Shown one piece after another: positions 6,001-33,000 of a stretch of DNA of 49,624 bases. The position numbers were made by a program. Location: assembly GCA_036339875.1 (NCBI GenBank), contig JAYZAC010000156.1, forward strand, positions 1 through 49,624, given 5' to 3'. Source of the stretch: a bacterium. GTDB taxonomy: Bacteria > Muiribacteriota > UBA6191. Each line of letters begins with the position of its first letter. The stretch's first letter is position 1.

Positions 6001-9000
6001 CCTTCAAAAACTACGGTATTTTCTACCATTCCAGAAAAGTAATTTTGGCCAACTCCGGTAGCTGATACGGGTATGGGTACACCTGTATGTCCTACGGTAC
6101 TCCAACCTATACCAGTTCGTTCTGCAATCAAATCGACCATCAGAATGGAGATCGGCTCGCTTGGACCGTATGCAAATTTCTTTGGGAATTTATCTTTTAA
6201 TTTAGGATCAAAAGTAAAATCATAAGCCTTCTCAATTCTATTTTTAGTATTTTCATCCAATTCACCTAAAGAAAAGTATTTACCCAGCTCTGAAAGTAAT
6301 TTCTCGAAAGATGGCTTAGTTTCGCGCCACTTCTGAACCACATTGTTGAACTCAAACATTGAAATTTTTTGATTCAACAGTTGCGAAGGACTCAATGTAT
6401 AACTCGTTTTGGACAAACCAAGAGATAAACCTCCCGTTTCATGATCGGCTACCACAACTACAGTTGTTTCGTCAGGGTGTTTCTCGTAGAAATCTACCGC
6501 AACCTTCACGGCCTCGTCGAAGTCAAGAACTTCTAACGCAGCAGTAGCCGCATCATTGGAGTGACAGGCCCAATCAATTTTACCTCCCTCTGCCATAAGA
6601 AAAAATCCGTTGGGATTTTTCAAAGACTTAATGGCCATACTTACATAATCCTTAAGCGTAGTATGATCACTACCTTTCCGATCAATAGCATAAGGTATAT
6701 CGGCGCCTTTACCGCAGTCATCAGGCATTACCCAATCACGCTCATTAGCTTTAGGCTTAAAAGCCGTAATATCGCTACTATGAAAAGTATAGCCATTCTC
6801 TTTTGCCTTCGAGTAATAGTAATCAGGAGTTCTCTTTAATCCGGGCATTTTTGAAACCTTAATACAGGCTCCACCAACAAAATCAAATGGTGCGACAACT
6901 AAATCATCCGCAATTTTATTATATAAACGACGATTCACTACTTTTCCGTAAAATGCTGCTGGCGTCGCATGATTAAGAGGAACGTTGGTAATGATTCCTG
7001 TCTTCATTTTACGTTTCCGAGCATAGTCCATCAAAGTAAGGTCAGTTTTACCCCCATCTTTATCCAGACCTATTGAACCTGAGTACGTCTTTTTACCGAT
7101 TGCATAAGTGGTGGCGCTGGCAGCAGAATCAGTAATATAACTATCAGTAGAATAAGTATGTAAATATCCCTGCACAGGAAGTTTGTTCATATTGAGTTTG
7201 ACGATTCCCGACTGCTCCGATACGCGACTATTAGCAAGAAATTCAGCTAACGTCCTCTGAGCAATACCCATACCATCTCCGATAAGAAGAAACACATATT
7301 TTGATCGCGCTTCACAATTAAAGTTTATTAAATTGAGTGCCAGTAATACAAAAATAACTCTGTTCACCACTACTCCTTGCAAACAAAAAATTACTTAAAG
7401 CCTGATAGTTTGCCTTGGCTGTGTTTAAGAATCAAGAGAATTTATTGAATCATAAGAGACGATTTAGAATACTTGACCACTGTAAGTTAAAATAAACCTC
7501 TATGCAGCAGACTATTAATCGAAGTTGGTGGATTACAATACTTACTTTCATTGCGTACGGATTTTTTTTCCTAGCATGGGTTCTAGTCGTTGAACCATAT
7601 CCAGATCGAGATTCTGTAAGTCAATTTTATTTTCCTTTCAAAAATTATCTTCAAGCATCTATTGAAATTGGTAACGATTTCATTTTTTTAAAAGGTTTAA
7701 TTCCTAATGAATATCCAAATGGCGGACTTCTTCTAGCTGCACTTATATCCTCATTAGGCTTACAAGATTTTGTCTTAAATCAACCATGGCTTGTTAATCT
7801 GATTTTGGTATTCGTACTAAGCCTAATAGCAACTCAATCTGGTTTTAAAGGTGTAAAAAAAATCATCTTCATCTTACTAGTATTTACATTTCCAATTAAC
7901 CAAATAGCACTTAAAAACTTTAATTTACACTCATTCAATTTTATTTTTTTTCTAGGTGGAATGACATTCTTTTTTCGCTTTCTTAAGACTAGAAAACGTA
8001 GTCTTTGTGTATCCGCAATATGTCTACTTTGGTTTGCATGTTCTGTTAAACATCTGGGGGTCGTCTTTTTCGGTATGGGTTGGTTTAGCTTGCTTCTCTG
8101 GAAAACTAATAAAAATGAGCCTATCAAAGAATTGTTTAATGTCGCCGGCATTGTAGCTTTACTAACATTGCCATTCTACCTTCATAGTGGAATTAAAAAA
8201 TATGTAGTCGGAATAATGGCCCACAATCCCGAATTAGATTCTAGTCTAGCGCTGTCAATCACTTCAATAACTGCAATTGTCGGTATTTTAGTTTTAATAG
8301 CCTGCGCTAAAAGTAATCGCTCAAAAGCACAAATACCAAAGTTGTTTGATAATGGTTTAATTTTTTTCCTCTTGGCAATTAGTTTGTGTTGGATAATTAG
8401 CTTGGATTCTGATTTTAGCCCCATTCCCTGTATGTTATTCAGCATGATAATAGGCTCATTAACTATCATAATTTTCATGCTTCAATTTGATTTCAAAGAT
8501 TTAAGAGGTCTGAAGATACTTTTTATATTAATTAGTCTAACTTTGGCTTTAACTCTCTATTTTTCACGACTAGCGCAAGTTTCAATGATCTTCTTTCCAA
8601 CGATATATGTTCTCATGTTAGTGACTTTCGAGGAGAATAAAACCCTTAAATTGCCCATCCTCATCCTAATCACGTTTGTGACTGTAAGTAACTTTTTTCC
8701 AAATCTAGAAGACTTAGAAAACAGAATTGGAAGCAAAGGCTTCGGACTTTATGCGCGTGGTTTAAATACTTTGCATCAAAACCTTCTCAATTGGAATAAA
8801 TCAAAAATTAGTCTATACCGTAACTCCATCGAGAATAGTCTATCCAATGTAGATTTTGAAAAGGGGCAAAAAGCACTTTTGACACTCCATCCTCATCTAC
8901 ATTCTTATACAGCTCTCGAACTACAATTTCCCGATCATTTTTTGTTCTCTTTTCCTCCGATGACATTATTGGAACAATTACCGTCAGAAAAGCTTGAAAA

Positions 9001-30000: not shown

Positions 30001-33000
30001 ATAGCTAGATCTATAAGTAGAGAATTCCTTAAATTCCTTGAACAAGGCGAATACCTTCCCAGATATTACGATTGCCAGTTATTACCACATCAAAATCCAC
30101 GATTAAAAGTCTGTATATCAAAAAAATTAAAAAAGAAAACAGTTGTTGAAAATCGCTGGAATCGTCATTTATCAGACCTCGCTAGTCGTTATGAGATGAC
30201 TCAAAGAAGACCGCTTCCCAACTGGATTACTAACTTAGATGATGAAAATCGTATGCGACTTTCACAAAAACGAGCTGGTGCAATTTATGACGAACTCGAA
30301 AAAAACGAAGTAAGATTATCTAAAACTAAAATCTATGCAAAACTCCGCAAAATAATTGAACTAGACCCTGCACATGTGGGTGCACTGGAGGATATCTTAG
30401 CCCTACAAGAAAAGCTTACTAAAAAAGATTGGATTCTGTTGAGTAAAAAATATCAACCTATTGATTCAAAAGCTTTGGAAGATTCGCTGACCTCAGTTAA
30501 AACAAATAACCAAAATCCAGAATTTGAATTGTTAAAGGTCCTCACAGATGATCAAAAAGCGCATCATTTATTTATTCTCAGCAACCGCTACTTTCATACC
30601 GATCCAAAGCACTGCATGAATTTATTAAAACAAGTATTGAAATTTAAACCTAATCACTCTGAAGCTCAGAAAGATCTGATCGTCTTAAAAAAACGAATCC
30701 AAAGTTCAAAGAATTGAATACCTTACCTCTAATTAAGCGAGTAACCCAACGGTATAAAAATACTAATTACCGAGAAGCACACACCTGCTAATTAAATCGA
30801 TTTTATTGAACAGGTACCTCAAGAAGAAGTCTAAATCCAAGATCATCTTCCCGCGATTCTGGGTGCTGACCACCACGAGTGGCACTCCTTAAGTAATCAG
30901 GCGTTTTCCACCAACTTCCACCTCTTTTACGACGACTTTCACCTTCTTTTTGACCTATTGGATCTACTCTAGGGTCTGCTGAATAACCATCTTCACCTTC
31001 AGCATCAATATCATTGACCCATTCCCAAACATTCCCATACATATCGTACAATCCCCAAGCATTTGGCTCTTTCTGAGCAACAGGATTCGTCGTCTTCTTA
31101 GCATTTTCTAGAAACCACGCATAAGAATCTAGTTTTGAAGGGTCATCTCCAAAATAGTAAGCTGTAGTTGAACCTGCTCTTGCGGCATATTCCCACTCAG
31201 CTTCCGTAGGTAAGCGATAGGTTCGCGAAGACTCTATTTCCTTCATTTTTTGCAAGAATTTCATAATATCGTTGAAACTTACATAATAAACAGGGTGATT
31301 CGGACCCTCACCATAGGGACCATCATCACCATAAGAAGAATTCTTTTTCCAAGAGTCTGCGCCCATTACTTTATCCCATTGCGATTGAGTTATTTCTGTC
31401 TCTGAGAGGTAAAAACTTTTTGTTATAGTCACCTCATGCTGCGGTAATTCATGAGATTTCGTATTCTGATCCTCTTTTGTGGACCCCATCAAAAATTTTC
31501 CAGCTGGTATTAGCAAAAATTTAATTCCCAAAGAATTCACCAAGATTTTCTCTGGTTGTTTAGCACTAACGGGAGATTGGTGAAGTGAAATAACGAGCAA
31601 CGCAATGAAAGAAAATTTTAGAGATGATTTCACTTATGTTTCCTTTTAATAGTCTGTTTGAAGTTCGTCCATAAATAGTATCCCAAACTCGCGTCAGTTG
31701 CACAAGCAATTACAGCTTAGTCTTGCCTATTTACGATGTCTACAACTTACAACATCGAGCACAAGCCGGTGACATATTTGCCTTAATTTTACCCCTAAAA
31801 TTCTGATAAGCAGGACTGTTCCAGATAGTCTTGATACTTTTTTCTCTAACGTTACCAAAAGGCTCTTGTAAAAAATGACAGGACTTCACAGTTCCTTCAG
31901 GATATAAGTATGTTGAATGCCATATGAAGTGACAGGGGCGTTTACTCTTAAACTCTTTTGTATACCAATTCTTTATTTCATAATCACTCAATTGTGGAAT
32001 CATTTGAAAGGGAATGGAGAAATCTTTGAAACGATCAGATGTAACATCTGCTCCAACCTTTTCCATTGGTAAATCCATACGATAAGAATATGCCTGATTA
32101 GTTTGAAAGCCTGCCGCAGAAGAGTAATCTGGATAATTCTCAATCTCCTGACTGGTGAGATAATTGAGATGTGTAAATTTCACAGCTCTTATGGGAAAAT
32201 CTCGAAAATCATCTTCAAATTCTCGTAGTCTATTTATAAAACCAGGTGTCATTGGGCAGTTCAAATAGATAGCCGTATCAGGTAAAGCATTATTGAACTT
32301 CCTAATATTTGTTTTTAATAATTCGTAGGCACCTTTCTTTTTTACCTCACGGTCATGGTCCTCACGTACACCAAGAATTGAAAACGTGATACTACCTAAA
32401 CTACCCGGACTAAGCTGATCTAAAAGTTTTTCATGAATCAGAAGTCCGTTAGAAACAACTGAAGATCTCATTCCCAGATTCTTAATTCGATCTAATATTT
32501 CAGGTAAGTCAATTCGAGCAAATGGCTCTCCTCCTGAAAAATGCCAATCAGGACCGAAATGAGCACAATCGTCTATTAAGCGATAAATCTCATCTAGACT
32601 CAACTCTCCTTTTTTTGAAGTCGTAAGAGCATCTGCCGTATGACAAATATCACATCTCAAATTACATCGTAAGGTCACCAGAAAATTAATAATTTTGGGG
32701 TATGAAATTGTTCTATTTAAAAGAAACGCTTCTAAGGGATAATAACCCAATATCTTAAGGATAGTAGAATCGCGGATAAAGTCGCGATGGAAACTAGCTT
32801 TTTTAAGATGTTGCCAATATGACATTTACATGGCCTCCATCAACAATTTAACATGCTTTGACGCTTCTTAAGCATTATGCTGTGTAATATAAAGATCTTT
32901 TAAGCCTCTGCTTAGTATATACTATTTAACCATGCGCCCTGTACTTAAGCGCCCGATATGCACCGAAATTGAAAAACCCTGCTTAAATGGTTCTTTAAAG

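What a model noticed while it worked through the whole genome (the two positions that open the first line are those of the whole stretch)
7502..30717. Tandem array of seven paralogs of an undescribed GT-C glycosyltransferase family with TPR tails
A 23-kb low-GC (33-35%) block holds seven paralogous 673-1002-aa polytopic membrane proteins (g01900-03, g01906-08; 21-45% identical to each other), six of them without any Pfam/NCBIfam/Swiss-Prot match and one with a TPR hit only, plus two secreted 1100-aa alpha/beta-hydrolase-like proteins (g01904-05); the membrane proteins fold as GT-C glycosyltransferases and end in a soluble domain with TPR-like helices. I read them as a battery of lipid-linked-sugar-dependent protein glycosyltransferases (bacterial counterparts of eukaryotic TMTC/DPY19/PMT enzymes), each paralog aimed at another periplasmic or surface acceptor. 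New would be a GT-C family of its own and a seven-fold tandem expansion of [...]
Evidence so far: Tables; all-against-all BLASTP links the seven (E 1e-18 to 0; call 34); 7-12 predicted TM helices and a conserved loop motif P-F-P-D-R-D-S after TM1 in six of seven. AF2 of g01903 with the 7 paralogs: pLDDT 72, pTM 0.74; Foldseek PDB best hits all GT-C: ALG12 9s6t (E 2.3e-3, prob 1.0), STT3 of OST 6ftg/8b6l, C-mannosyltransferase DPY19 7zli, PglB 3rce, ArnT 5f15, AftD. TPR hits in tails of g01907 and g01902; Abhydrolase_6 at 141-250 of g01905 (E 6.5e-5, call 22). Only 19 clusters in 5.8 billion proteins match g01908 at E<=1e-3, none with a function name.
(Added by a program. Inside this text positions count along the whole contig: contig position 1 is position 1 of the stretch shown here. 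"Call 12" and the like, gene names such as g00115 and contig names such as C1 are that model's own, and its searches are not shown. The text may have been shortened before it was handed on; [...] marks where a part breaks off. The agent that wrote the report below was given it as the finding of a first reader that could run no searches.)

Follow-up and report, generated by a model that had tools for sequence, protein, structure and literature searches.

The report
Seven-gene array of orphan membrane glycosyltransferases
An uncultured marine bacterium carries seven neighbouring copies of a membrane enzyme that resembles, in shape but hardly in sequence, the sugar-attaching enzymes ArnT and TMEM260, next to two large secreted partner proteins; what they decorate is unknown.

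Summary
Window 7502-30717 has seven paralogous polytopic membrane proteins (673-1005 aa, 21-45% identical) around two secreted 1086/1117-aa proteins.

With a 65-sequence alignment, AlphaFold2 gives a confident model of paralog D (pLDDT 93.3, pTM 0.92). Its first 19 matches among 48,161 PDB representatives all have the GT-C fold (ArnT Z 17.4).

The plan is a 13-helix GT-C core, a five-stranded alpha/beta domain and a TPR tail. That is the three-part plan reported for human TMEM260.

No Pfam or NCBIfam model matches the core. Only 137 clusters of 1.84 billion match the family profile. Weak collinear links to PMT/PMT_2 do exist.

Six of the seven lineages predate the split of two genera, so this is an old fixed array, not a recent expansion. 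dN/dS is 0.08-0.23.

The low GC comes from amino-acid composition, since GC3 equals the flanks.

Most likely these are periplasm-facing glycosyltransferases that use polyprenyl-phosphate sugars, with acceptors chosen by the soluble domains. Donor and acceptor are unknown, and a protein acceptor is inference.

Earlier notes of this scan describe GT-C+TPR paralog arrays in at least 26 other genomes. I rate this a new sequence family of a known kind, of moderate interest.

The parts
7502..10096 (+). Paralog A, 864 aa: GT-C-like membrane core, soluble alpha/beta domain, 3 TPR-like tail units
   Evidence: ORF; BLASTP; family profile E 1.6e-292; unit count; orthologues in G001, G002 and G003
10096..12216 (+). 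Paralog B, 706 aa; loop-1 motif variant SVPSVED; 1 TPR-like unit; its start overlaps the stop of A
   Evidence: orthologue in G003
12235..15252 (+). Paralog C, 1005 aa; 6 TPR-like units; the only paralog with strong Pfam TPR hits
   Evidence: TPR_19 E 3.8e-13; unit count; orthologues in G003 and G007
15252..17273 (+). Paralog D, 673 aa, the modelled member: TM1 residues 2-29, loop 1 with helices 35-55 and 59-66, about 13 TM helices to ~380, alpha/beta domain ~425-600, TPR 606-673
   Evidence: AF2 pLDDT 93.3, pTM 0.92; fold searches
15342..15362 (+). Loop-1 motif P-S-P-D-K-D-G of paralog D (residues 31-37), holding the candidate catalytic or donor-positioning acids D34 and D36
   Evidence: D/E at position 34 in 53 of 63 and at 36 in 51 of 63 family members; the motif sits at the start of the first loop-1 helix in the model
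17255..20515 (-). H1, 1086 aa: N-terminal hydrophobic signal-like segment, alpha/beta-hydrolase-like domain, long helical repeat region; its end overlaps the end of D (convergent)
20491..23844 (-). H2, 1117 aa: signal-like N-terminus, alpha/beta-hydrolase-like domain (~95-310), low-confidence Ser/Thr-rich linker (313-321), helical solenoid 325-1117; upstream of H1 on the same strand with a 25-nt overlap
   Evidence: AF2 pLDDT 86.3, pTM 0.80; Foldseek; Pfam
23155..23169 (-). H-S-G-G-S nucleophile-elbow motif of H2 (residues 226-230), invariant in 14 of 14 H-like proteins
23924..26008 (+). Paralog E, 694 aa, 1 TPR-like unit; transcribed divergently from H2 across a 79-nt spacer
25983..28337 (+). 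Paralog F, 784 aa, 2 TPR-like units; 45% identical to G
28342..30717 (+). Paralog G, 791 aa, 2 TPR-like units; F and G arose by duplication within the genus
   Evidence: ESM Atlas feature hits to PMT/PMT_2 clusters
30803..35391 (.). Neighbours that may belong: FGE-sulfatase-like (30803-31633 -), radical SAM/SPASM (31740-32825 -), B12-binding radical SAM (32932-34434 +), FGE-sulfatase-like (34486-35391 +)
   Evidence: Pfam. Two FGE-like genes and the B12 radical SAM gene (74% identical) also lie beside H-like and family genes in genus g2. This may be inherited gene order only.

Best explanation
The seven genes encode a small, lineage-restricted family of GT-C (class GT-CA) membrane glycosyltransferases. 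It is not detectable with curated family models. Each protein has about 13 transmembrane helices and a first periplasmic loop of two helices that begins with a conserved acidic pair (D34-x-D36 in paralog D). After the last helix come a five-stranded alpha/beta domain and one to six TPR-like units. This is the 'wrist-palm-fingers' plan reported for human TMEM260.

Inferred mechanism: a polyprenyl-phosphate-linked sugar, made in the cytoplasm and flipped, binds in the membrane core. Conserved K137, K182-H183, Y225, Y233 and H240 are candidates for phosphate and sugar contacts. The loop-1 acid activates or positions the reactants. The alpha/beta and TPR domains hold the acceptor at the periplasmic face. 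I favour an extended Ser/Thr-rich stretch of an exported protein as acceptor, by analogy with TMEM260 and TMTC.

Six paralogue lineages have been kept side by side since before two genera split, which argues for six different specificities (acceptor or donor). The two co-located secreted proteins H1/H2 (esterase-like fold plus a ~750-residue helical solenoid, with a disordered Ser/Thr-rich linker) travel with the arrays in three genera. They are the best candidates for partner or acceptor.

Shown: the genes, their paralogy, selective constraint, fold, domain plan, motif conservation, distribution and linkage. Inferred: catalysis, donor, acceptor and the role of H1/H2.
For: - Fold: the AF2 model of D built on 65 sequences has pLDDT 93.3 and pTM 0.92. 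VIA-align against 48,161 representatives puts GT-C-fold chains in ranks 1-19: ArnT 5f15 Z 17.4 (403 aligned, rmsd 5.0), AglB 16.9, ALG12 16.9, Pmt1-Pmt2 15.5, STT3B 15.0. From rank 20 on, nearly all rows are TPR proteins matching only residues 606-673.
- Foldseek: the first 28 rows are GT-C enzymes or complexes that hold one. Best E is 5.8e-4 and TM 0.29-0.46.
- GT-CA hallmarks, as worded in PMC13503287 (passages read): loop 1 has two helices (35-55, 59-66), and D/E sits at its start in 53 of 63 (position 34) and 51 of 63 (position 36) members.
- Sequence bridges: of the 137 hits of the family profile, P0136 (E 3.9e-4, profile 104-227) passes Pfam's cut-offs for PMT and PMT_2 over the same residues. 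hhalign against 16 PMT_2 proteins of the phylum gives P 1.6e-4 over 137 collinear columns, against 0.018 for the reversed alignment and 0.28-0.82 for five block shuffles. hhalign against 15 TMEM260-like proteins gives P 3.8e-4 over the same region.
- ESM Atlas features: the nearest named clusters are PMT/PMT_2 (+TPR) and Dpy19, score 0.95.
- Plan: it matches TMEM260 (GT-C 24-415, Rossmann-like 416-564, TPR 565-706; passages of bioRxiv 10.64898/2026.03.17.711096).
- Accessory domain: the only one found in longer family members is more TPR.
- Old, maintained paralogues. dN/dS 0.08-0.23.
- Linkage: H-like genes give strong matches in 5 of 10 genomes of the family, all five with family arrays. They are adjacent or near in genera g1, g2 and g6.
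- Donor machinery: the genome has GtrA-type flippase genes, so it makes polyprenyl-phosphate sugar donors.
Against: - No Pfam or NCBIfam GT-C model matches any of the seven. A profile search of PDB sequences finds only TPR proteins.
- Foldseek E-values and TM-scores are weak. The sequence bridges are marginal: hhalign probabilities 51% and 36%, and only 1 of 65 members touches PMT_2, at E 0.007.
- The loop-1 acids are not invariant. [DE]x[DE] is present in 45 of 63 members.
- No conserved acid is seen in the alpha/beta domain where TMEM260 has its catalytic D441.
- No donor synthase gene lies in or beside the array. The one complete polyprenyl-phospho-pentofuranose cassette in the genome is not co-distributed with the family: it was not found in G003 or G007.
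- No residue-level superposition could be made, so the equivalence of D34/D36 with the catalytic acids of solved enzymes is positional only.
- There is no 1:1 pairing of paralogues with H-like genes. Genus g3 has family members but no H-like gene was found there.
- Nothing on expression: no RNA holder was listed among the sequencing runs.
Confidence: 0.55

Rival explanations
1. They are active GT-C glycosyltransferases, but the acceptors are envelope glycans or lipids (O-antigen or capsule side branches as for Gtr* and GT136 enzymes, lipid A as for ArnT, or wall polysaccharide as for Aft/Emb). The TPR tail would only dock the enzyme to other envelope proteins such as H1/H2.
For: The best structural match is ArnT (Z 17.4), and AftA, AftB, AftD and PimE are also in the list. 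The genome holds a complete UbiA-GtrA-DprE1-like-SDR-HAD cassette with no GT-C beside it; by PMC11127046 (passages read) such cassettes feed GT-C enzymes that decorate glycans. The family evolves faster than its flanks (43-72% against 80-86% identity to G002), as surface-glycan genes often do. Multi-paralogue GT-C sets for glycan decoration are known (Aft/Emb; recalled).
Against: No carbohydrate-binding module was found in the seven paralogues, the 65 aligned members or the further long members scanned; only TPR. The DprE1-like gene was not found in G003 or G007, which have large arrays. No polysaccharide-synthesis genes lie in the 49.6-kb contig.
Confidence: 0.3
2. They are GT-C-fold proteins that no longer transfer sugars. 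They would be membrane scaffolds or receptors that use the fold and the TPR tail to hold partners, like the PIG-U subunit of GPI transamidase (the comparison is recalled).
For: Three PIG-U chains are among the GT-C-fold matches (Z 11.0-11.8). The loop-1 acids are only 81-84% conserved. H1/H2 also look like enzymes without a full catalytic set: no conserved His.
Against: The most conserved residues of the family are polar or aromatic. Several lie at the periplasmic end of TM1, in loop 1 or after the last helix (W25, D34/D36, S398-N399, N430, W434); where the others (Q133, K137, K182-H183, Y225, Y233, H240) sit relative to the membrane I could not determine. This looks like an active-site pattern, not a packing pattern. 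All seven paralogues keep an acid in the loop. dN/dS is 0.08-0.23.
Confidence: 0.08
3. The GT-C resemblance is a modelling artefact or a generic helical-bundle match, and the proteins are transporters or something else.
For: The Foldseek E-values are weak (best 5.8e-4), and helical bundles can reach Z about 13 by chance, according to the tool's note.
Against: In both searches every leading match has one fold class (19 of the first 19 and 28 of the first 28), and transporters appear only below them (MelB at rank 29, probability 0.08). Z 17.4 exceeds the tool's helical-bundle caution. Independent sequence and language-model signals point to the same superfamily.
Confidence: 0.03

Closest known systems
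Human TMEM260 protein O-mannosyltransferase (CAZy GT117 as I recall; Pfam PF11028 TMEM260-like/DUF2723), with bacterial homologues
   Same: Three-part plan with nearly the same boundaries. TMEM260: GT-C membrane part 24-415, Rossmann-like five-stranded domain 416-564, TPR 565-706. Paralog D here: ~1-424, 425-600 (five strands), 606-673. Both have an essential acid at the start of loop 1 (D52 there, D34/D36 here). hhalign shows weak collinear similarity over TM2-TM7 (P 3.8e-4).
   Different: PF11028 matches none of the seven paralogues and nothing in the whole genome. No conserved acid corresponds to the catalytic D441 of the Rossmann-like domain. The model suggests about 13 helices against 11. 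TMEM260 is a single gene, whereas here there are seven paralogues. The TMEM260 coordinates were not in the PDB copy searched, so no direct superposition was made.
ArnT (undecaprenyl-phosphate-L-Ara4N:lipid A transferase, PDB 5f15/5ezm; Pfam PMT_2)
   Same: Best structural match: Z 17.4, 403 residues aligned, covering the membrane core and the C-terminal periplasmic domain (model 6-601 against chain 26-574). Weak collinear profile match to PMT_2 proteins.
   Different: 9% identity. PMT_2 matches none of the seven paralogues at E up to 0.1, and only 1 of 65 aligned members at E 0.007. ArnT has no TPR tail, and it acts on lipid A as a single gene.
TMTC1-4 (GT105) and bacterial PMT_2+TPR proteins
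   Same: GT-C core followed by lumenal or periplasmic TPR repeats. Multi-paralogue sets exist. ESM Atlas nearest clusters are PMT/PMT_2 with TPR. Earlier notes of this scan report tandem arrays of such proteins in at least 26 other genomes (not checked here).
   Different: Those proteins are recognised by PMT_2 or DUF1736 models, and these are not. Here an alpha/beta domain sits between the core and the TPR.
GT136 (Citrobacter youngae ORF12), a recently founded GT-C family
   Same: It shows how a GT-C enzyme with no sequence similarity to existing families became a new CAZy family, recognised by a predicted GT-C fold and a lipid-linked donor (PMC11127046, passages read).
   Different: GT136 carries a carbohydrate-binding module and sits inside a three-component donor/flippase/GT-C locus. 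Here the accessory domain is TPR and no donor genes are adjacent.
For H1/H2: putative acetyl xylan esterases BF1801 (PDB 3nuz) and BVU_4111 (3g8y); Pfam AXE1 PF05448
   Same: The N-terminal alpha/beta-hydrolase fold matches (Foldseek E 8.6e-5 and 2.2e-4). The HGHG and G-H-S-G-G motifs and an Asp after the next strand are invariant in 14 of 14. One distant homologue carries PF05448.
   Different: No conserved His follows the Asp. An invariant C-C-E motif is present. The domain is fused to a ~750-residue helical solenoid. Only 9 clusters match among 5.8 billion proteins.

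Membership tests
GT-C fold, class GT-CA | Polytopic membrane protein with an N-terminal conserved module of seven TM helices followed by a variable module (PMC13503287, passages) | tested here: met
   Model with pLDDT 93.3. 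The first 19 VIA-align matches and the first 28 Foldseek rows are GT-CA enzymes or complexes that hold one. The split into 7 + ~6 helices is read from secondary structure only.
GT-C fold, class GT-CA | First extracytoplasmic loop of two helices, the first carrying the catalytic acid | tested here: met
   Helices 35-55 and 59-66 follow TM1. D/E at position 34 in 53 of 63 and at 36 in 51 of 63; [DE]x[DE] in 45 of 63. Equivalence to the catalytic acids of solved enzymes is by position, not by superposition.
GT-C fold, class GT-CA | Uses a polyprenyl-phosphate-linked sugar as donor | not testable with these tools
   Indirect only: GtrA-type flippase genes and a polyprenyl-phospho-pentofuranose cassette exist elsewhere in the genome.
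Pfam PMT_2 / PMT (GT39, GT83 type) | Match to PF13231 or PF02366 above the curated cut-off | tested here: not met
   0 of 7 paralogues match. 1 of 65 members reaches E 0.007, below cut-off. The remote link is hhalign P 1.6e-4 plus one true PMT/PMT_2 protein at E 3.9e-4 in the profile search.
TMEM260-like (PF11028, DUF2723) | Match to PF11028 | tested here: not met
   No hit in the seven or in the whole genome. hhalign to 15 TMEM260-like proteins gives P 3.8e-4, probability 36%.
TMEM260-like (PF11028, DUF2723) | GT-C core + Rossmann-like domain + TPR domain | tested here: met
   Secondary structure and domain limits of the model, compared with the limits given in the preprint.
TMEM260-like (PF11028, DUF2723) | Catalytic Asp in the Rossmann-like domain (D441) | tested here: inconclusive
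   No column of residues 425-600 has 70% or more D/E in the 65-sequence alignment, but the alignment there is loose and no superposition was possible.
TMTC (GT105) | DUF1736 / PMT_2-type core followed by many TPRs | tested here: not met
   The core is not recognised by any Pfam model. TPR is present: 1-6 units.
Alpha/beta-hydrolase serine esterases (for H1/H2) | Nucleophile elbow G-x-S-x-G and an oxyanion-hole motif | tested here: met
   G-H-S-G-G and H-G-H-G are invariant in 14 of 14. The fold matches 3nuz and 3g8y.
Alpha/beta-hydrolase serine esterases (for H1/H2) | Complete Ser-Asp-His triad | tested here: not met
   D249 is invariant, but no invariant or nearly invariant His follows it in 14 sequences. 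Y291 is the invariant residue after the next strand.

The most novel reading that the evidence does not exclude
The array, the H-like solenoid proteins and perhaps the neighbouring FGE-like and radical-SAM genes form one dedicated envelope system. In it, six anciently diverged members of a new GT-C family each glycosylate a different stretch of the giant exported H proteins (for example their Ser/Thr-rich linkers) or of other surface proteins. This would be happening in a marine lineage in which the usual PMT_2 and TMEM260-like enzymes are scarce among the genomes searched. If so, it would be a bacterial multi-enzyme protein O-glycosylation system with its own substrates, and would found a new CAZy family.
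Probability: 0.15. Interest if true: 0.7.

Novelty: new variant of a known kind. Interest (0 to 1): 0.42.

Why it matters
GT-C enzymes build or decorate most extracytoplasmic glycoconjugates, and new sequence families are still being founded (GT136 in 2024; TMEM260 was recognised in 2023).

This family escapes all curated models, yet it can now be modelled with high confidence. That gives a concrete set of residues to test.

It has the same core-palm-fingers plan as TMEM260. Seven natural variants sit side by side, with candidate partners next door. That makes it a compact natural experiment on how the soluble domains of GT-C enzymes set acceptor choice.

Its practical weight is limited. The host is uncultured, and neither donor nor acceptor is known. 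Arrays of GT-C+TPR paralogues appear to be common in bacteria, so the general theme is not new.

Tried and rejected
- Foreign-island reading of the low GC: rejected, because GC3 equals the flanks.
- Recent tandem amplification: rejected by the tree.
- PDB sequence-profile search with the whole family: only TPR proteins, no GT-C.
- The search for related loci with the alignment failed for lack of conserved stretches.
- A language-model look-up of a CarB fragment gave mixed phyla. The phylum stays undetermined.
- Polyprenyl-phospho-arabinofuranose as the family's general donor: the DprE1-like gene was found only in genera g1 and g3, not in G003 or G007. It is kept only as a lead for this genome.
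- DUF7897 beside a GtrA gene as another GT-C: it has no hydrophobic segments, so it is not one.
- Promoter and terminator scan of 7000-26900: fewer sites than in shuffles, uninformative.
- Rfam: no match in the window.
- The two divergent spacers (7383-7501 and 23845-23923) show no obvious shared motif by eye.
- Sequencing runs: 20 rows from 9 studies of marine or seawater metagenomes hold part of the stretch.
- Word-indexed homologue search with the alignment gave only 11 close unnamed proteins.
- Paper searches were for GT-C/TPR themes. An unnamed family cannot be searched by name, so 'undescribed' rests on the absence of Pfam/NCBIfam models and source names, not on the literature.
- Supplements of the papers cited were not opened.

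Full report
**What is there.** The window is a whole 49,624-base contig (C156) of an 85%-complete, 2.89-Mb metagenome-assembled genome. Between 7502 and 30717 lie nine long ORFs. Seven are on the + strand: A 864 aa, B 706, C 1005, D 673, E 694, F 784 and G 791. Two are on the - strand in the middle: H2 1117 aa, followed by H1 1086 aa.

Gene ends overlap or nearly touch. A/B and C/D share a base, E/F overlap by 26 nt, H2/H1 overlap by 25 nt, and D and H1 converge with a 19-nt overlap. This suggests three transcription units: A-B-C-D, H2-H1 and E-F-G. Consensus promoter and terminator scans added nothing, and Rfam finds nothing in the window.

**Paralogy.** BLASTP links all seven at 21-45% identity over nearly full length, with E from 3e-20 to 0. 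H1 and H2 match only each other. Hydropathy peaks (7-12) lie in the first ~400 residues. Pfam finds strong TPR hits in C, weak ones in A and F, and nothing on any membrane part. NCBIfam finds nothing relevant.

**The low GC is not an island signature.** GC3 of the nine genes is 0.27-0.31, the same as in the flanking genes (0.28-0.37). The deficit lies in codon positions 1 and 2, so it reflects the Phe/Ile/Leu/Lys/Asn-rich composition of these proteins.

**Size and range of the family.**
- A profile of the first 620 residues, run against 1.84 billion representatives, finds 137 clusters at E <= 1e-3 (97 at 1e-30). A family related to PMT_2 at ordinary distances would have pulled in very many more.
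- Among 41 genomes searched (G000 included), matches occur in G000 and in 6 of 9 other genomes of the same taxonomic family. None occur in 31 genomes of other families of the class and phylum.
- In G000 all seven copies are on this contig.
- No source gives any member a name or a Pfam domain.
- The stretch is held by marine and seawater metagenomes of 9 studies. I could not name the phylum.

**Age of the array.** A maximum-likelihood tree of 34 members from five genomes (quick IQ-TREE, SH-aLRT support) shows that A, B, C, D and E each have an orthologue in G003, a different genus. C, D and the F/G lineage also have orthologues in G007. F and G arose by duplication within the genus.

The gene order A-B-C-D / H / E-F-G is kept in G002. 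In G003 the order is A-B-(E-like on the other strand)-C-D-...-F/G. So this is not a recent seven-fold amplification. It is six old lineages kept together.

Orthologue pairs give dN/dS of 0.08-0.23 where dS is unsaturated. The family and the H genes evolve faster than their neighbours: 43-72% and 46-54% identity to G002, against 80-86% for flanking genes.

**Fold.** With 65 family sequences as alignment, AlphaFold2 models paralog D at mean pLDDT 93.3 and pTM 0.92.
- VIA-align, run against all 48,161 PDB cluster representatives without Foldseek, puts GT-C-fold chains in ranks 1-19: ArnT Z 17.4 (403 residues, rmsd 5.0), AglB 16.9, ALG12 16.9, Pmt1-Pmt2 15.5, STT3B 15.0, ALG3 14.5, Pmt4 14.4, AftA 13.5, then GPI-MT-I, PglB, PimE, ALG6, PIG-U, ALG9, DPY19, AftB and AftD. 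From rank 20 on, nearly all rows are TPR proteins that match only residues 606-673.
- In Foldseek the first 28 rows are GT-C enzymes or complexes holding one. Best E is 5.8e-4 and TM 0.29-0.46. A transporter first appears at rank 29 with probability 0.08.
- The ESM Atlas feature search independently lists PMT/PMT_2 (+TPR) and Dpy19 clusters as nearest, score 0.95.

**Domain plan.** The model has:
- TM1 (residues 2-29).
- A loop of two helices (35-55, 59-66).
- About twelve more membrane helices up to ~380.
- Junction helices.
- An alpha/beta domain with five strands (459-464, 487-489, 522-528, 578-581, 589-594).
- A TPR-like tail (606-673).

The alignments to ArnT, AglB, PglB and STT3B run through to residues ~595-601, so they include the soluble domain.

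Passages of the TMEM260 cryo-EM preprint describe the same three parts with nearly the same limits: GT-C 24-415, Rossmann-like 416-564 with a five-stranded sheet, and TPR 565-706. There the TPR and Rossmann-like domains grip an extended acceptor peptide (see also PMC10214176, passages).

The paralogues differ mainly in the tail. C has 6 TPR-like units, A has 3, F and G have 2, and B, D and E have 1. The longer family members scanned carry only more TPR and never a carbohydrate-binding module.

**Catalytic features.** By the wording of PMC13503287 (passages), GT-CA enzymes have a seven-helix conserved module, and a first lumenal loop of two helices whose first helix carries the catalytic base.

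Here the loop begins P-x-P-D-x-D. Position 34 is D/E in 53 of 63 members and position 36 in 51 of 63. [DE]x[DE] is present in 45 of 63, and most of the rest keep one acid nearby. Paralog B has E-D shifted by two residues.

The most conserved positions of the family are W25, P130 (65 of 65), Q133, K137 (K/R in 62 of 65), K182-H183-x-G185, Y225, Y233, H240, S398-N399-F-x-P402, N430 and W434. This polar and aromatic set fits a lipid-phosphate and sugar pocket. I could not place these residues in space, because the tools return no coordinates.

No conserved acid appears in the alpha/beta domain, where TMEM260 has its catalytic D441.

**Sequence links to known families.** They are weak but consistent.
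- The penultimate hit of the profile search, P0136 (E 3.9e-4 for the whole library; profile positions 104-227 against residues 101-226), passes Pfam's own cut-offs for PMT (26.9 bits) and PMT_2 (27.2 bits) over residues 87-231.
- hhalign of the 65-sequence alignment against 16 PMT_2 proteins from the same phylum gives P 1.6e-4 and probability 51%, over 137 collinear columns (68-204 against 60-198). The reversed target gives 0.018, and five block-shuffled targets give 0.28-0.82.
- Against 15 TMEM260-like proteins the same region aligns at P 3.8e-4, probability 36%.
- One of 65 members touches DUF2142 (E 1.1e-4) and one touches PMT_2 (E 0.007).
- A profile search of PDB sequences finds TPR proteins only.

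I read the family as a far outlier of the PMT/ArnT/TMEM260 superfamily. It fails the membership test for each named family.

**H1 and H2.** Both begin with a hydrophobic signal-like segment. H2 modelled with 14 homologues has pLDDT 86.3 and pTM 0.80. It has an alpha/beta-hydrolase-like domain (~95-310), a low-confidence linker (313-321) and a helical solenoid from 325 to the end.

Foldseek matches the solenoid to many TPR/HEAT proteins, and the N-terminal domain to two putative acetyl xylan esterases, 3nuz and 3g8y. Invariant in 14 of 14 are H-G-H-G (144-147), H-S-G-G-S (226-230), D249 and C-C-E (262-264). No His is conserved after D249, so a classical triad is not evident. The linker after the hydrolase domain is variable and rich in Ser, Thr and Pro in all homologues.

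The H family is tiny: 9 clusters among 5.8 billion proteins, one of them carrying AXE1.

H-like genes give strong matches in 5 of 10 genomes of the taxonomic family (G000-G003 and G007). All five have family arrays, and the H-like genes lie within or near the arrays in three genera. Genus g3 has dispersed family members and no H-like gene was found there. A sixth genome, G005, shows only a trivial 46-residue match. Because the genomes are kin, this is suggestive and not a statistical test.

**Wider neighbourhood.** Downstream of G lie an FGE-sulfatase-like gene, a radical SAM/SPASM gene, a B12-binding radical SAM gene and a second FGE-like gene. In G003, two FGE-like genes and the B12 radical SAM gene (74% identical) again sit next to H-like genes and a family member. 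This may be functional linkage or merely inherited order.

No sugar-activating or donor-synthase gene is in the contig. Elsewhere the genome has two GtrA-type genes. One lies in a UbiA / GtrA / DprE1-like / short-chain dehydrogenase / HAD cassette. By the passages read in PMC11127046, that is the make-up of a polyprenyl-phospho-arabinofuranose donor pathway that normally feeds a GT-C enzyme. The DprE1-like gene was found only in genera g1 and g3 and not in G003 or G007, so it cannot be the donor route for the family as a whole.

**Context in the phylum.**
- PMT_2 proteins pass the cut-off in 23 of 25 genomes outside this taxonomic family, but in only 1 of 6 inside it, G000 included.
- TMEM260-like proteins are found in 21 of 34 genomes outside and 1 of 7 inside.

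The orphan family may thus stand in for the usual enzymes in this lineage. The fit is imperfect, since G005 shows none of the three, and the genomes are not independent.

**Comparison and novelty.** It works most like TMEM260 and TMTC (a GT-C core with an acceptor-binding TPR arm). It is structurally nearest to ArnT among solved chains. It is not a member of PF11028, PMT_2 or DUF1736 by their models.

Earlier notes of this scan report arrays of GT-C+TPR paralogues in at least 26 other genomes of several phyla (I did not check them). The theme of a bacterial battery of TPR-armed GT-C enzymes is therefore recurrent. The points that are new here:
- A sequence family invisible to curated models, now with a confident model.
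- The TMEM260-like alpha/beta 'palm'.
- The fixed association with the H-type esterase-solenoid proteins.

**Verdict.** This is a real, ancient, constrained array of a new sequence family of GT-CA-fold enzymes.
- Fold: very likely.
- Glycosyltransferase activity with a lipid-linked donor at the periplasmic face: likely.
- Protein acceptors, and H1/H2 as partners or targets: plausible but unproven.

I score interest at 0.42 and rate it a new variant of a known kind.

Noticed in passing
window 5973-17273 compared with G001:C83 (L013) and G001:C46 (L014): Mosaic divergence between two genomes of one genus. The alkaline phosphatase and paralogs A-C have dS 0.16-0.37 (87-95% identity), whereas D, H1, E, F, G and most genes downstream have dS about 1-2.5 (60-90% identity). 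The switch lies between C and D (~15.2 kb) inside a single G001 contig, which suggests a recent recombination or transfer of the left part.
   Followed up: partly
G000:C90 (L039) 10326-14355: A five-gene cassette: UbiA-type prenyltransferase, GtrA-type flippase, FAD-binding DprE1-like oxidase, short-chain dehydrogenase (DprE2-like) and HAD phosphatase. This is the make-up of a polyprenyl-phospho-arabinofuranose donor pathway, with no GT-C gene beside it. The DprE1-like gene was found in 5 of 10 genomes of the family (genera g1 and g3).
   Followed up: partly
G000:C196 (L020) 649-2097, minus strand: A 482-aa ORF with 12 hydropathy peaks and a sub-threshold PMT_2 match (E 7.7e-4 in the six-frame genome search; no Pfam hit at E 0.01 on the protein), next to ispG and def. 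It is possibly the genome's only conventional small GT-C enzyme, and a candidate user of the pentofuranose donor.
   Followed up: no
window 17255-23844 (H1, H2) and 12 homologues: The alpha/beta-hydrolase domain keeps HGHG, GHSGG and an Asp but has no conserved catalytic His. It also has an invariant Cys-Cys-Glu motif (H2 residues 262-264). This may be a non-canonical esterase or a pseudoenzyme.
   Followed up: partly
window 30803-35391; G003:C23 (L012) 5119-11465: Two FGE-sulfatase-like genes and a B12-binding radical SAM gene (74% identical between genera) accompany the family and H-like genes in two genera. The window also has a radical SAM/SPASM gene between them.
   Followed up: partly
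G003:C23 (L010) 18022-20000: One family member in the G003 array is split into two ORFs (296 and 367 aa) that cover profile positions 8-252 and 332-604. It is a frameshifted or decaying copy.
   Followed up: no
G000:C188 (L040) 6032-8454: A 647-aa soluble protein that matches DUF7897 end to end (E 5.5e-202) lies divergently beside a GtrA-family gene. Its function is unknown.
   Followed up: no
Phylum-wide searches: PMT_2 and TMEM260-like genes are common in the phylum (over the cut-off in 23 of 25 and 21 of 34 genomes outside the taxonomic family) but scarce inside the family that holds the orphan GT-C family (1 of 6 and 1 of 7).
   Followed up: partly
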